Assembly: GCA_035221665.1 (NCBI GenBank)
Contig: CM069135.1
Coordinates: 37,634,001-37,698,000, forward strand
From: Okamejei kenojei
Taxonomy: Eukaryota
Length of the DNA: 64,000 nucleotides
Direction: 5' to 3'
The position numbers and the translations under genes were made by a program. The notes under the pieces were generated by a model. The model was not told the origin of the DNA. It searched no databases and saw only the letters and a list, made by a program, of their open reading frames with translations. Of the stretch, positions 538 to 9,102 are shown one piece after another. Every line of letters starts with the position of its first letter. Positions within the stretch are counted from its first letter, which is position 1.

Positions 538-1189
538 TGTGAGGGATAAAGTGATTAAACCCCATTACAGTAAGGAGTTTTAAAGAGAATCCGAACTGAG
601 AGGGGCCGGAGAGAGGGTTCTGACACAGCTGTGTCTGAAGGTTGCCAGGCCCATCCTTGAGTCCTTGAGTAAGAAGTAATAGCATTGTATAGCAGTAGAA
701 GGGAGTGATGTAGAGAGATCCATATCAGTGGAAGGGAGTGATAGATGGGACCCTTGTCACTATAGCTTAGCTTTAGTACTGATATAGGAGAACTGAGAGG
801 GTTCACTAGGAGGTGAGTAAAACTAGGGTAGGTCATGAGCAACTGAGCATGCTTAATAGAATAAATGAATATTACAACACACCCCTGGTCAAGAAACTGC
901 TCATTACCATGAACATGTTTGAACATGCGATGTATGATATGGGAGGTGCGAGGGGATGTACGGTGGGATGTACCTACAGATTGTGCACCTCAGACCCTGA
1001 TTGGAGAAGGGTCCAGAGGGGAGGTTGAATGTAAAATTCTGTGTATAAAGGGGGATGACTTCTTTGGCTTCGGTGTGTCTCGATTTGGAGAGGCACCCGG
1101 GTCTGCTGCAGAGTCGAGAGGAATAAAGAACTCTTGCTTCCAAGATTTAGTCTTTGAGCATTAATTGTGAGCACAAAGCGTATCTCACA
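538..1189 (+). repeat. 5' LTR (652 bp)
   Basis: Direct repeat of 8451-9102 with TG...CA ends; ATTGG (reverse CCAAT) 1000-1004, TATAAA 1044-1049, AATAAA 1122-1127. Confidence 0.98.
911..930. promoter_or_regulatory. Candidate p53-family response element in LTR U3 (also 8824-8843)
   Basis: GAACATGTTT-GAACATGCGA is two adjacent RRRCWWGYYY half-sites (first perfect, second 2 mismatches, no spacer). A further perfect half-site GAGCATGCTT lies at 845-854. Confidence 0.5.
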
Positions 1190-1192
1190 AAT

Positions 1193-1210
1193 TGGGGGCT
1201 CGTCCGCGAT
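1193..1210 (+). promoter_or_regulatory. Primer binding site, tRNA-Pro
   Basis: TGGGGGCTCGTCCGCGAT matches 17/18 to the MLV-type PBS-Pro TGGGGGCTCGTCCGGGAT, 3 nt after the LTR. Confidence 0.93.
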
Positions 1211-1402
1211 CGCCACTCCGGCTGCTTGGTGGAGGCAAAGAAGGAGGGGAAGGTGCACCCTGCTGATTTCAGCAGTCTCCGATCTCCTTGCTTGCCATCA
1301 GCAGTTTGAGCGAGTGATATTCGGTGGGTAAGACTCGGGAAGCAAGAGGGGGTGTAAGGTAAATACGTACGGGACGGTCGAGCGATTCTTGTGCACAGGA
1401 CC

Positions 1403-1411
1403 CAGGTAAGA
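1403..1411 (+). promoter_or_regulatory. Probable major splice donor of the provirus
   Basis: CAG|GTAAGA in the leader between the PBS and the gag ATG. Confidence 0.65.
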
Positions 1412-1454
1412 AAAGCGACTATTAAGTATTGCCTGGGCGACCGGGGGCGAGACG

Positions 1455-3599
1455 ATGGGAAACCGGAACGGGAAAAGTAAGGGTCCGGGGAACCTGGATG
1501 AGGCTCATACTGATATGGAGCCTAACATTCCGCCCGATAGTCCGTTGGGGCGAATGTTGGATGGGGTGAAGGGAACACCCGGGGTAAGAGTAAGGAAACT
1601 ATGATAAAGTTTTGTTACTTTGAGTGGCCAAAGGAGCCTATTCGAGGGAGCGCAGTGTGGTGGCCGCGGTTGGGTTCAAATGAGGACTGGGTGGGACAGG
1701 CATTGAATGTTTTTGTGAATGAAAGACAAACGCCGAATCAAATAGAAAAGGAATATGCCCAGTGCTGAAAACCCAATAATGGGATGTTTCCGTTAAAGAC
1801 GGAAAGAGAGCAGGATGAACCTGACTGGCCACCAATTGGTGATGATCACCTACGGAGACTGCCCCCGCCATATGAATCCCAGCCCCCAAATATATCCCCA
1901 TCAGCGCCGGCTGCATCTGCCCAGGAGGTCCCACTAATCCAGAGCGGATCGGCAGTAAACCTGTCCGCTCTTGTCTCAGAAGAGACAGATAATAGAGAAT
2001 TACAGAAAGTAGAATGTGAAGGAGAGAGAGCCAGTCAGATAAGGAAGAGAAAATAAAAAGTGAGGACAAGGATGGGACGGGTGTCCCAGGCAGTAGTCGG
2101 AGGACGCGATCTCAAACGAGGGCAGCAGAACAGAGATTAGACCGATCTGTTCAAATGAAGCCCCTCAGGGAGGTCCCGTTAGGGGGAAATGCCGGGGGGA
2201 TGGGATTTGTAAATGTGCCTCTCACCAGTATGGGGGTGAGGAACTTTAAAAAGGAGATGAAAAGTTTATTGGAAGACCCCTTGGGACTGGCTGAACAAAT
2301 AGATCAGTTCCTAGGGCCAAAAATGTTTTTATGAAAAATATTGAGTTGTTTCAAACAATCTCATTGAAGTAAGAATGGAACTAATGTGATGTGTGTGTAA
2401 AAACCGGTTTTGTATGAATGAGGAAGTTTGTATATGTGATAGGTTTGTTTGCTGTGGGCTGCATGTTGTAAGGGTATGTGTGTGTATTCCTTTAAGAAAT
2501 TGTAAGCAATGGGGGAGGTTATTGTAAGGTAACGGACAACGCTTTGTATCATCGCAACTTAAAAAGGGGAAGTTGGAAAATGTAGGTTGCTTGGCTTCTA
2601 TAGATTTATTTTCAGTAAAGTTAATTTGGAAAATTGTTAGTCGTATGTATTTAAACTAGGAATTGGAATTTGGGAATTGTAGGGGGAATGGTTTGAACAA
2701 AATTAGAAATAAGTTAATTGCTGAACAACAAGCAGCTTTTATGGTTTGTTTAGATAAACATTCTGGTTGGAGAAGGGTAATAAATTAATGGGGCCCAGGG
2801 AAAAAAAAGGAGTTGGCAGACAATGATGTCAATAAGGGGAAGTTTGTTTACTTCAGAAGAAAGACAGATGGTCAGACAGGCAGGAGAAGGGGTTACAGGC
2901 TCAAGCGGGAGCAGTAAAATATCCCATTACTGCGCCGGATTGGAGTAACCAAACAGAAGAAGTATGAGAGATCTCAGGGAGATAATAATCAAGGGAATCT
3001 GAGAAGCCGTTCCCAAGGGACAGAATTTCGAACGGGCTTTTGAGAATCAGCAGAACAAGGACGAACCTCCGACAGTGTTCTTACAAAGGTTAAGGAGGAA
3101 TGTCCAGCAGTATTCAGGGATAGACCCTGATTCAGACGCAGGTCAGCAGTTGCTAAAGGTTAATTTTGTAACAAAATCATGGCCAGATATTAGAAAGAAA
3201 TTGGAAAAATTGGAAGATTGCAATGAAAAACCATTGAATCAATTGTTAACAGAGGCTCAAAAGGTATATGTAAGACGGGATGAGGAGAAGCAGAAGGGAA
3301 AGGCAAAAATGATGTTGCAAGCAGTACAGCAAGGAGTACAGAAGGGGGGAATCGAAGGTGATAGAAGGCCGGGTGCTCATGGAGACCGGGAAAGGGGAAG
3401 CGGTAGTATTGGAGGACGAGGAAGAGGTGAATGGGGGGACCGAAGTAGGGGTCCCCGGGAAAACAAGGAACAAGAATCAAGAAGATGGTACACGGGGCCA
3501 CCCCGGTGTTATTATTGTAAAGAGGAGGGTCATTTCAGGAGGGAATGTCCCAAGCGACGATGGGAGGTGCAGTCGTACGCACTCATGGAGGAAGAATAG
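1455..3599 (+). pseudogene. gag: ERV gag (disrupted)
   Basis: MG start; IPPDSPLGRML; MIKFC..WPKEPI..WP.LGS.EDW; PPPY late domain (1862-1873); PLREVPLGG..GFVNVPLT..LLEDPLGLAEQIDQFLGP; FVTKSWPDIRKKL; zinc knuckle CYYCKEEGHFRREC. Contains stops, frameshifts and an insert at ~2321-2810. Confidence 0.93.
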
Positions 3600-7120: not shown

Positions 7121-7136
7121 ATGTATAACTGACAGT

Positions 7137-8383
7137 ATGAAAGGAGCAGTCTTTGTATGTATTGTTTGAAAGGGCGGACAACCAGATCATTTATCTATCA
7201 TTCCCATGTGAACAAAGTATGCCATGACCGGAAGACTAGAACCATTTGTGAAGAGGGGTTAAAGGAGTATTTGATGGCAGGCAATAGGGGGTATATAGGG
7301 AAGTTTGGGGCCGTTACCTGCCCAAGGGGAGAGAGATGGGTTTGTGTACAGTTAGTTTTCCCTTCTCAGATCGTAAAATGGGCAATAGATAAGATGAGGG
7401 AGGAAGTAATAAAAGAGGTTACAGAAGTAGTAGTCACTAAGCCTCCCCCTCCCCCACCCACTCAGCCTCAAGTGCACCAGACACTGTACGAAGAGATAAA
7501 GAAGCAGATCGAGATCCCTGAAGGAAAAAAAAAAGAAAACCTGTTTGTGGACTTGGCCCTCCGGATAGCTGGAATCCTGAATGTGACTAAACTGCTGGGT
7601 CTGCGGAGGACCACTGATGAGTTCACATTGGCCGTGGAGGGGATCCATTGTTGAAGTATGGGACCTGATGGGGTGGAACCTGACAGTTGGACAAGACCGA
7701 GATCCCCAGGTATGGGTCCTGACAGACGCTCCGTTCGGGGACTGAGTTTATCGCTAGGCCCTGGGCAAAGGATGCCGTCCTAGTAGGCAGCAGCCCCTGC
7801 CAGCGCATCGTCACCCAGTGGCCAAATCAGTCCCGAGTGTGGTGGCCACGGGAGCCTAAATGGTATCTAACTAAGAAATATGGGAAAAACTGCGGGGGCG
7901 CTGGAAATGCTGGCAAAGCGGCAGACGCAGATGAGAGCAGTGATATACCAGAACAGGTTAGCCCTAGATTACCTCCTGGCAGAAGAAGGAGGGGTATGCG
8001 GGAAATTCAACCTCTCTAATTGCTGTTTGAACATCGATGATAATGGACAGGCAGTGATGGACATATCAGAAGGGATCCGTAAGTTGGCACATGTTCCAAT
8101 ACAAAAGTGGAATTCGATTATGGGAACCCAATGGTGAGATTCCATCCTCGGAGGAACATGGTGGAGAACGGTGGGACTCGTGTTTCTATGTGCAGTGGCT
8201 GGACTGATCTTTATCCCCTGTTGCATCCCTTGTTTTAGGGAACTTATTACCAGAAGTATAAGTCAGATGCAGGCGGTAGTCATGCCTATGGGAGAGAGAG
8301 GGGAAATACAGAGAATAATGATAATGCGGCCAGGGGAGGTTCATGATTTACAGGAAGAGAAGGTTAGGACAATGTTACGTTAG
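7137..8383 (+). pseudogene. env: ERV env, gamma-type (ERV3/HERV-I-like), internally deleted
   Basis: NLFVDLALRIA..NVT-NCWVCGG..WPW (CXXC); [23 protein letters not shown]7CC ([10 protein letters not shown]); [12 protein letters not shown] helix. No furin site or fusion peptide; stop at 8135-8137. Confidence 0.92.
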
Positions 8384-8432
8384 TTCGAGTTGAGGGAACT
8401 TGAAATGAGGGTTTAATCAGTGTATGCGTAGC

Positions 8433-8449
8433 AAAAGAAAAAGGGAGGA
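8433..8449 (+). promoter_or_regulatory. Polypurine tract
   Basis: AAAAGAAAAAGGGAGGA immediately before the 3' LTR. Confidence 0.9.
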
Positions 8450-8450
8450 T

Positions 8451-9102
8451 TGTGAGGGATAAAGTGATTAAACCCCATTAAAGTAAGGAGTTTTAAAGAG
8501 AATCCGAACTGAGAGGGGCTGGAGAGAGGATTCTGACACAGCTGTGTCTGAAGGTTGCCAGACCCATCCTTGAGTCCTTGAGTAAGAAGTAATAGCATTG
8601 TATAGCAGTAGAAGGGAGTGATGTAGAGAGATCCATATCAGTGGAAGGGAGTGATAGATGGGACCCTTGTCACTATAGCTTAGCTTTAGTACTGATATAG
8701 GAGAACTGAGAGGGTTCACTAGGAGGTGAGTAAAACTAGGGTAGGTCATGAACAACTGAGCATGCTTAATAGAATAAATGAATATTACAACACACCCCTG
8801 GTCAAGAAACTGCTCATTACCATGAACATGTTTGAACATGCGATGTATGATATGGGAGGTGCGAGGGGATGTACGGTGGGATGTACCTACAGATTGTGCA
8901 CCTCAGACCCTGATTGGAGAAGGGTCCAGAGGGGAGGTTGAATGTAAAATTCTGTGTATAAAGGGGGATGACTTCTTTGGCTTCGGTGTGTCTCGATTTG
9001 GAGAGGCACCCGGGTCTGCTGCAGAGTCGAGAGGAATAAAGAACTCTTGCTTCCAAGATTTAGTCTTTGAGCATTAATTGTGAGCACAAAGCGTATCTCA
9101 CA
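8451..9102 (+). repeat. 3' LTR (652 bp)
   Basis: Same length as the 5' LTR, with 5 substitutions by manual comparison. Confidence 0.98.

What the first reader, a model, noticed from the sequence alone, without database searches (positions are those of the whole stretch)
538..9102. Young, complete HERV-I/ERV3-like provirus in an apparent cartilaginous-fish genome
Seen: all proviral landmarks (652-bp LTRs with 5 mismatches, ~0.8%; 4-bp TSD; PBS-Pro; PPT; gag-pro-pol-env). Recalled knowledge: the Gag motifs IPPDSPLG / WP.FGS.EDW / DQFLGP / FVTKSWPDI and the Env motifs NLF..LA..IA, C.VCGG..WPW, CX7CC and KLAH.P.Q.W characterise the HERV-I/HERVIP and ERV3 group, mostly described in amniotes. Most described fish ERVs are epsilon- or spuma-like. 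Inference: a recently active gamma-like lineage in a chondrichthyan, either ancient and persistent or acquired across classes, possibly with intact relatives elsewhere in the genome.
Basis: partly seen in the sequence, partly recalled or inferred. Interest (0 to 1): 0.8.

Follow-up and report, generated by a model that had tools for sequence, protein, structure and literature searches.

The report
Decayed HERV-ADP-like provirus in a skate
This is a real but broken copy of a retrovirus in what is probably a skate genome, from a virus group otherwise best known in birds, reptiles and primates that had already been reported in sharks and skates.

Summary
The provirus is real: 652-bp LTRs differing at 5 sites, 4-bp target duplication, Pro-type PBS, PPT, gag-pro-pol-env. 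It is not intact: at least 8 frameshifts, 3 premature stops, a 480-nt insert in capsid and about 150-190 codons missing from env. "Young" depends on the clock: 1.7 Myr at a mammalian rate, about 17 Myr (6-41) at a shark rate. Gag-Pol is HERV-IP/HERV-ADP type; Env is ERV3/HERV-E type, so it is a full member of neither human group. The nearest named relative is a little-skate family (78% over Pol); the RT clade also holds stingray, catshark, snakes, lizard and birds. RT-core identity to birds (74%) is like that to catshark (71-76%), which favours cross-class transfer; direction is unresolved. The lineage is already reported: a lemon-shark ERV close to a human ERV and gamma-related lineages ERV-GA.a-Ara and -Cpu. 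The host is inferred from viral relatives, not shown; no epsilon reference was in the trees. Verdict: new member of a known kind, modest interest.

The parts
1..537 (+). 3' end of a host LINE with a (CTAAA/CTGAA)n tail, the insertion site
   Evidence: tblastn of two other LINE frames of the window hits 9-303 at E 4e-19 to 6e-19; repeats elsewhere in the window; tail shown
534..537 (+). left copy of the 4-bp target-site duplication (AACT)
   Evidence: sits in a 5-bp tandem repeat, so weak on its own
538..1189 (+). 5' LTR, 652 bp; TATA-like box at 1044, poly(A) signal at 1122
   Evidence: roles of the two signals inferred from position
1193..1210 (+). primer-binding site, tRNA-Pro type
   Evidence: 16 of 18 bases match a PBS listed as P (AGG) in the supplement of PMC4724089
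1455..3599 (+). gag, HERV-IP/ADP type, one CCHC finger, ends in TAG in frame with pro; broken by frameshifts (one between 1530 and 1660, one near 2027), stops near 1766 and 3000, and an insert
2331..2810 (.). 480-nt sequence of unknown origin that interrupts capsid right after DQFLGP; 7.9% C
   Evidence: reference residues 374 and 375 flank it; no similarity to the window or to 11 reference proteins; not a garbled copy of the provirus against shuffles
3600..7169 (+). pro-pol (PR DSGA, RT YVDD, RNase H, IN with WTGPY); four frameshifts near 4071, 4315, 5484 and 6592
7133..8383 (+). env, ERV3/HERV-E type ([20 protein letters not shown]7CC); frameshifts near 7589 and 7734-7773, about 150-190 codons missing near 7894 (end of SU, cleavage site, start of TM), stop at 8135 before the membrane anchor
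   Evidence: the start of env was not located
8433..8448 (+). polypurine tract
8451..9102 (+). 3' LTR, 652 bp, 647 of 652 identical to the 5' LTR
9103..9106 (+). right copy of the target-site duplication (AACT)

Best explanation
A defective, two-LTR endogenous retrovirus of class I (gamma-like, clade 'Jin'), inserted in the tail of a LINE in an elasmobranch genome, probably a skate's. The parent was a simple retrovirus: transcription from the 5' LTR, tRNA-Pro priming, Gag-Pol made by read-through of the amber codon after gag, Env from a spliced message with SU and TM joined by a disulfide (CWVC and CX7CC), integration with a 4-bp duplication. The signals and gene order are shown; the mechanisms are inferred from gammaretrovirus biology. 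As assembled, this copy can make no full Gag, Pol or Env and could move only with a helper. It pairs HERV-IP/HERV-ADP-type gag-pro-pol with an ERV3/HERV-E-type env. The lineage is spread across skates, rays and sharks and most likely crossed between tetrapods and elasmobranchs long after those hosts split (about 0.75 for transfer over co-divergence; tetrapod to elasmobranch is only mildly favoured). Insertion age is a few to a few tens of Myr.
For: Landmarks and domains. Breaks mapped against 11 reference proteins, with the pol positions agreeing across references. Of the six motifs searched in the consensus file of PMC4724089, the three that occurred (DSPLG, DQFLGP, DLKDAFW) were in HERVIP and HERVADP only, apart from one DSPLG in PRIMA41; the 172-residue RT core matches the printed HERVADP consensus at 129 of 172 by my eye count. 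The ISD is the HERVE/HERV3/HERV1/HERVI form, not the main HERVIP/HERVADP form. Nearest named relative: Leucoraja erinacea, 78% over 872 Pol residues, sister at 100/98. RT clade of 32 of 56 rows (100/100) holds elasmobranchs, snakes, lizard and birds. RT-core identity: catshark 71-76%, swallow and blue tit 74%, corn snake 70%, cat ERV 49%. Tree distance to swallow (0.77) is less than swallow to swift (1.29) or stingray to catshark (0.95). No ray-finned fish among the named hits in the 120 listed rows of each of three searches. In the TM tree all 9 elasmobranch rows form one branch (93/97), with crocodile and passerine/parrot rows (97/94). PDB ranking: gammaretroviral-type RT entries 304-306 bits, foamy-type 81-86, HIV 34-45.
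Against: The host class rests on viral relatives and on recalled repeat types; exact look-up of 10 window proteins found 0 and the atlas gave only 'Chordata'. No epsilonretrovirus, MLV, HERV-ADP or HERV-IP sequence was in the trees. The base of the RT clade is unresolved: AU tests reject neither elasmobranch monophyly (p 0.485) nor monophyly of the in-group amniotes, the host-like split (p 0.441). The elasmobranch Env branch is not starred. Pol and Env hits carry no genomic context, so their pairing outside this window is not shown. Three of six motifs searched were absent from the HERV consensus file. Some breaks may be assembly errors.
Confidence: 0.8

Rival explanations
1. Most lesions are assembly errors in a multi-copy repeat, and the true insertion is nearly intact and recent.
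For: No indel between the LTRs against at least 8 internal frameshifts. 5 of 8 break positions tested lie near a run of 4 or more bases, against 27% of random positions. The insert is C-poor (one of only two places in 1043 windows with C at or below 8.5%) and has no homologue. The window has an N gap and long G runs. Six little-skate Pol proteins are open over 882 residues and 99.5-99.9% alike.
Against: Zero LTR indels is expected 13-19% of the time at the internal rate. Three in-frame stops and five LTR substitutions are not indel errors; about 28 (9-65) internal substitutions are expected from the LTR clock. A deletion of 150-190 codons is not a usual read error (own knowledge). The little-skate family is only 78% identical, so it is another family.
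Confidence: 0.2
2. The lineage is ancient and co-diverged with jawed vertebrates, elasmobranch members being the sister of amniote members.
For: Present in skates, stingrays, an electric ray, catshark and bamboo shark; elasmobranch Envs form one branch; the host-like split is not rejected (p 0.441).
Against: RT-core identity to birds equals that to catshark. No named ray-finned fish hit; PMC6001957 found no Jin element in 66 ray-finned fishes, coelacanth or 3 cartilaginous fishes; elephant shark ERVs are epsilon- or SnRV-like. Within elasmobranchs the Env tree joins a stingray to a bamboo shark to the exclusion of the electric ray (98/93), against host kinship.
Confidence: 0.12
3. It is an epsilon-related fish ERV that captured a gamma-type env, as described for many anamniote ERVs.
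For: Such recombinants exist (bioRxiv 2021.11.23.469661); no epsilon reference was in my trees.
Against: Pol and Gag match HERVADP/HERVIP, which sit in clade Jin with ChiRV1 in the supplementary tree of PMC6001957. The nearest Pol relatives outside elasmobranchs are in birds, which lack the epsilon clade according to the same paper.
Confidence: 0.02
4. The window is not chondrichthyan, or the provirus is a contaminant from a bird or reptile.
For: The host was not shown from a host gene; bird hits dominate the lists by number.
Against: The element is integrated, with a duplication, in a LINE family repeated across the window. Its sister is a skate element (100/98) and its Env falls among elasmobranch Envs.
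Confidence: 0.06

Closest known systems
ERV-GA.a-Ara and ERV-GA.a-Cpu (bioRxiv 10.1101/2021.11.23.469661)
   Same: Gamma-related class I lineages with gamma-type Env and a typical gammaretroviral layout; the study reports such Env-bearing ERVs in 6 cartilaginous fishes. I read 'Ara' and 'Cpu' as thorny skate and bamboo shark; the text seen does not spell this out.
   Different: Sequence identity with this copy untested (supplements closed). The parts read do not mention HERV groups (0 occurrences of 'HERV'), so the link to HERV-ADP is not made there.
Lemon shark ERV (Herniou et al. 1998, seen only as cited in PMC4422223)
   Same: [quoted passage not shown]
   Different: A single sequence; original paper not read; that it is the same lineage is likely but untested.
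HERV-ADP and HERV-IP (supergroup HERVIPADP), with avian ChiRV1-like elements
   Same: Gag and Pol motifs, one zinc finger, no Gag-Pro frameshift, GPY motif, Pro PBS as in HERVIP; RT core 129 of 172 to the HERVADP consensus by eye.
   Different: Their main Env has the WENRIALD/WENRLALD ISD; this one has [18 protein letters not shown] uses a Phe PBS. Minor HERVIP subgroups c and d do carry the YQNR form, which the paper ascribes to recombination with HERVE.
ERV3/HERV-E/HERV1/HERVI (supergroup HERVERI)
   Same: Env ISD and CX7CC; best named Env hits are annotated 'ERV3-1 Env-like'.
   Different: The Gag and Pol motifs searched do not occur in their consensuses. Mammalian Envs of this type branch apart from the window's.
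Little skate family (XP_055491949.1 and cluster mates)
   Same: Sister in the RT tree; 78% over Pol.
   Different: Open over 882 residues, six RefSeq proteins 99.5-99.9% alike on four different large contigs, so more recently expanded; annotated only as 'NYNRIN-like'.

Membership tests
Class I gamma-like ERV (clade Jin) | gag-pro-pol in one frame with a stop after gag; no dUTPase or accessory genes | tested here: met
   TAG at 3597-3599 in frame with pro; no other families in 13 frames
Class I gamma-like ERV (clade Jin) | one NC zinc finger, Gag_p30 capsid, GPY/F motif in IN | tested here: met
Class I gamma-like ERV (clade Jin) | RT groups with gamma rather than epsilon references | tested here: inconclusive
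   No epsilon or MLV sequence could be placed in the tree. Indirect support: match to HERVADP/HERVIP, their place in Jin, PDB ranking
HERVIPADP supergroup | Gag and Pol similarity to HERVIP/HERVADP consensuses | tested here: met
   motif search and eye count of 129 of 172 in the RT core; not a computed alignment
HERVIPADP supergroup | Env with the WENRI/LALD ISD | tested here: not met
   ISD is [11 protein letters not shown]
HERVIPADP supergroup | PBS Pro/Ile (HERVIP) or Phe (HERVADP) | tested here: met
   Pro type, as in HERVIP; PBS is an unstable marker
HERVERI (ERV3/HERV-E) | Env with [14 protein letters not shown] and CX7CC | tested here: met
   46 of 48 named reference Envs have CX7CC, 0 have CX6CC
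HERVERI (ERV3/HERV-E) | Gag-Pol of HERVE/HERV3 type | tested here: not met
   none of six motifs occurs in those consensuses; motif-level test only
Epsilonretrovirus | accessory genes and an Env lacking gamma-type hallmarks | tested here: not met
   definition; element has ISD and CX7CC and no extra genes
ERV-GA.a-Ara lineage | 80% or more DNA identity over 3 kb to the lineage's representative | not testable with these tools
   criterion; supplements closed, journal version not held
Currently invading ERV (ERVi of PMC10435555) | identical LTRs and intact gag, pro, pol, env | tested here: not met
   criteria; 5 LTR differences and all genes broken
Currently invading ERV (ERVi of PMC10435555) | insertional polymorphism | not testable with these tools
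   needs population data

The most novel reading that the evidence does not exclude
Sharks, rays and skates carry their own radiation of a retrovirus whose polymerase is about as close to primate HERV-ADP and songbird ERVs as to other elasmobranch members. It entered by one cross-class jump, has since moved between shark and ray orders, and is still expanding in at least one skate. The little-skate family would then be the first ongoing retroviral invasion in a cartilaginous fish; a survey found 0 of 13 such genomes with one, using an older fragmented little-skate assembly.
Probability: 0.3. Interest if true: 0.6.

Novelty: new member of a known kind. Interest (0 to 1): 0.32.

Why it matters
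The copy itself is an ordinary decayed provirus. Its use is that it links, in one locus, HERV-ADP/IP-type gag-pol with ERV3-type env in a cartilaginous fish. That is a whole-element counter-example to the statement that clade Jin infects only amniotes (PMC6001957), though the lemon-shark report and the anamniote Env survey already dent that statement. It also makes the old lemon-shark question testable with genomes: when and in which direction did this group cross between land vertebrates and elasmobranchs, and is it still active in skates? It is a reminder too that 99% LTR identity does not mean recent in slowly mutating sharks and rays.

Tried and rejected
Plasmid collection searched with the RT frame for a named gammaretroviral reference: 2 records, both about 30% identical and irrelevant. 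The 50%-cluster library gave 150 rows without names; none was used in trees, so no epsilon reference was gained. Host from flanks: atlas search of a LINE frame gave only Chordata-dominated clusters; exact look-up found 0 of 10 window proteins; Pfam confirmed LINE domains in 6 of 9 flank frames, which carries no taxon; a literature search for elasmobranch SINE/LINE markers gave nothing usable. No tRNA and no Rfam match in the window. The idea that the gag insert is the missing env piece, or a garbled copy of the provirus, was rejected: best tblastn E 0.2; alignment scores within or at the edge of shuffle ranges, the highest 94.5 against a shuffle maximum of 94.0. A second CpG-rich host exon was sought near 26 kb and not found. 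Pairing of this Pol type with this Env type in bird gene models was inconclusive: 2 of 6 models held DLKDAFW with CX7CC, 1 held DLKDAFW with CX6CC, and none held both DLKDAFW and the ISD pattern. Trees used 55 of 240 listed RT hits and 48 of 120 listed Env hits: named rows only, redundant swallow rows thinned; the AU tests used 27 of those rows. No structure was predicted, as the families are known.
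Full report
Observation. Two 652-bp repeats at 538-1189 and 8451-9102 begin TG and end CA, differ at 5 sites without indels (K2P 0.0077) and are flanked by AACT on both sides. The site lies in the short tandem tail of a host LINE, which weakens the duplication as evidence. A PBS at 1193-1210 matches a listed tRNA-Pro PBS at 16 of 18 bases, and a 16-purine tract precedes the 3' LTR. Pfam places capsid, one zinc knuckle, protease, RT, RNase H, integrase and a coat domain in the usual order. 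Gag ends in TAG in frame with pro, the read-through layout of gamma and epsilon viruses (PMC1224870, passages). The landmarks are therefore confirmed.

The copy is not intact. A frameshift-aware alignment to 11 reference proteins, which reported positions only, finds four frameshifts in pro-pol (near 4071, 4315, 5484, 6592). In gag it finds one near 2027, stops near 1766 and 3000, and a 480-nt insert at 2331-2810. In env it finds two frameshifts (near 7589 and 7734-7773), about 150-190 codons missing near 7894 and a stop at 8135. A further gag frameshift between 1530 and 1660 follows from the frames of two motifs. The env gap covers the basic cleavage motif in the 3 of 5 full-length elasmobranch references where that motif was found. 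The insert has no homologue in the window or the references. Some breaks may be assembly errors: 5 of 8 tested lie near base runs against 27% background, but the lack of LTR indels is not significant (P 0.13-0.19), and the stops and the deletion are of another kind.

Age. Five differences give 1.7 Myr (0.6-4.1) at a mammalian rate and 17 Myr (6-41) at the shark rate assumed in PMC4422223. At the measured epaulette-shark rate of 7e-10 per generation (PMC10587355, passages) they give about 5.5 million generations. LTR conversion would hide age and read errors would add to it. 'Young' is thus unproven, and this copy fails two criteria for an invading ERV (PMC10435555, section 6).

Affinity. In the HERV consensus file of PMC4724089, DSPLG, DQFLGP and DLKDAFW occur in HERVIP and HERVADP, with one stray DSPLG in PRIMA41; three other motifs searched were absent. 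By eye the 172-residue RT core matches the printed HERVADP consensus at 129 positions; this is a hand count, not a tool result. The Env ISD is the form listed for HERVE, HERV3, HERV1 and HERVI, whereas the main HERVIP and HERVADP Envs have another. The element therefore pairs HERVIPADP-type gag-pol with HERVERI-type env and is a full member of neither. HERVI, HERVADP and ChiRV1 are listed with snake, bird, turtle and crocodile ERVs in the Jin part of the supplementary tree of PMC6001957, while the cartilaginous-fish labels found there lie in other clades (text extracted from a figure, so order is approximate).

Relatives. The best named RT hit is from little skate (80%), then swallow, corn snake, stingray, catshark, rattlesnake and wall lizard at 55-70%. 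In a tree of the unbroken RT frame with 55 named proteins, the window is sister to the skate protein (100/98) in a 32-row clade (100/100) of elasmobranchs, squamates and birds with an unresolved base. With 27 rows, AU tests reject neither elasmobranch monophyly (p 0.485) nor the host-like split (p 0.441). In the TM tree of 49 rows the 9 elasmobranch rows form one branch (93/97, not starred) beside crocodile and birds (97/94), and inside it a stingray joins a bamboo shark against host kinship. RT-core identities are 71-76% to catshark, 74% to swallow and blue tit, 70% to corn snake and 49% to a cat ERV. The window is nearer to a swallow element (0.77) than that element is to a swift's (1.29). 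No named ray-finned fish occurs in the 120 listed rows of any of the three searches. Together these favour transfer between classes over co-divergence; all outgroup rows are tetrapod, which leans to a land origin, but no fish epsilon outgroup was available, and with one the direction could tie.

Host. Not shown directly. The nearest relatives point to a skate. The flanks are LINE-rich vertebrate DNA whose repeat types I recall from rays and skates. I put a chondrichthyan host at about 0.94.

What is known. PMC4422223 (whole text) cites a lemon-shark ERV close to a human ERV and thought to be cross-transmitted; the 1998 original was not read. [quoted passage not shown] The preprint 10.1101/2021.11.23.469661 (passages and parts 2-4 of 6) reports gamma-type-Env ERVs in 6 cartilaginous fishes and names gamma-related lineages ERV-GA.a-Ara and ERV-GA.a-Cpu. 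Against this, PMC6001957 (parts 1-3 of 5 and supplement searches) says Jin infects only amniotes, and PMC9967133 (passages) says gamma-related ERVs are largely absent from fish. PMC11089739, PMC5753468 and PMC10699275 were seen as passages and add nothing specific. Eight searches found no paper tying skate or ray ERVs to HERV-ADP, but most subscription journals and repeat libraries were not searched.

Verdict. A real, defective provirus of a lineage already reported in elasmobranchs: a new member of a known kind. What remains of interest is the close Pol tie to HERV-ADP and bird ERVs, the spread across shark and ray groups, and a near-identical open-pol family in little skate, while a survey found no invading ERV in 13 cartilaginous-fish genomes. 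Interest 0.32; the boldest reading has probability 0.3 and would merit 0.6.

Noticed in passing
window 47400-48300: CpG island with a first coding exon at about 47775-47900 that looks like ASAP2 exon 1 (name recalled, not tested).
   Followed up: partly
window 2331-2810: The insert in capsid is very C-poor on the + strand, has no homologue and is about as long as the piece missing from env; the match in length appears to be chance. Origin unexplained.
   Followed up: partly
window 568-839 and 8481-8752: All five LTR differences lie in the first 302 bases, and in each the 5' LTR has G or C and the 3' LTR has A or T.
   Followed up: no
window 1201-1500: The proviral leader is still CpG-rich (GC 0.57, CpG observed/expected 0.98), against 0.35 in the host flank.
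   Followed up: no
P0007 cluster (RefSeq, Leucoraja erinacea): Six 882-residue Pol proteins 99.5-99.9% alike on four large contigs, annotated as NYNRIN-like; two have consecutive accessions and may be one locus.
   Followed up: partly
P0139, P0144, P0148, P0154, P0155: Full-length (556-631 aa) ERV3-type Env proteins are annotated in bamboo shark, a stingray and an electric ray; two clusters have 11 and 41 members.
   Followed up: partly
window 9100-64000: Dense LINE fragments of several families, some copies 98-100% alike (30173/42331/54118; 42431-43201 against 62803-63631), so LINEs were also active fairly recently.
   Followed up: no
window 19080-19140, 28790-28845, 61940-61980, 61230-61696: Long G runs and a 467-base N gap, which bear on assembly quality.
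   Followed up: no
P0358: A 57%-identical retroviral RT fragment labelled Klebsiella pneumoniae on a 770-base contig; probably vertebrate contamination of that record.
   Followed up: no
bioRxiv 10.1101/2021.11.23.469661: The F-env gene of a sea-turtle herpesvirus is reported to resemble the Env of ERV-GA.a-Ara and -Cpu (27-32%), a possible trace of this Env type moving among marine hosts.
   Followed up: no
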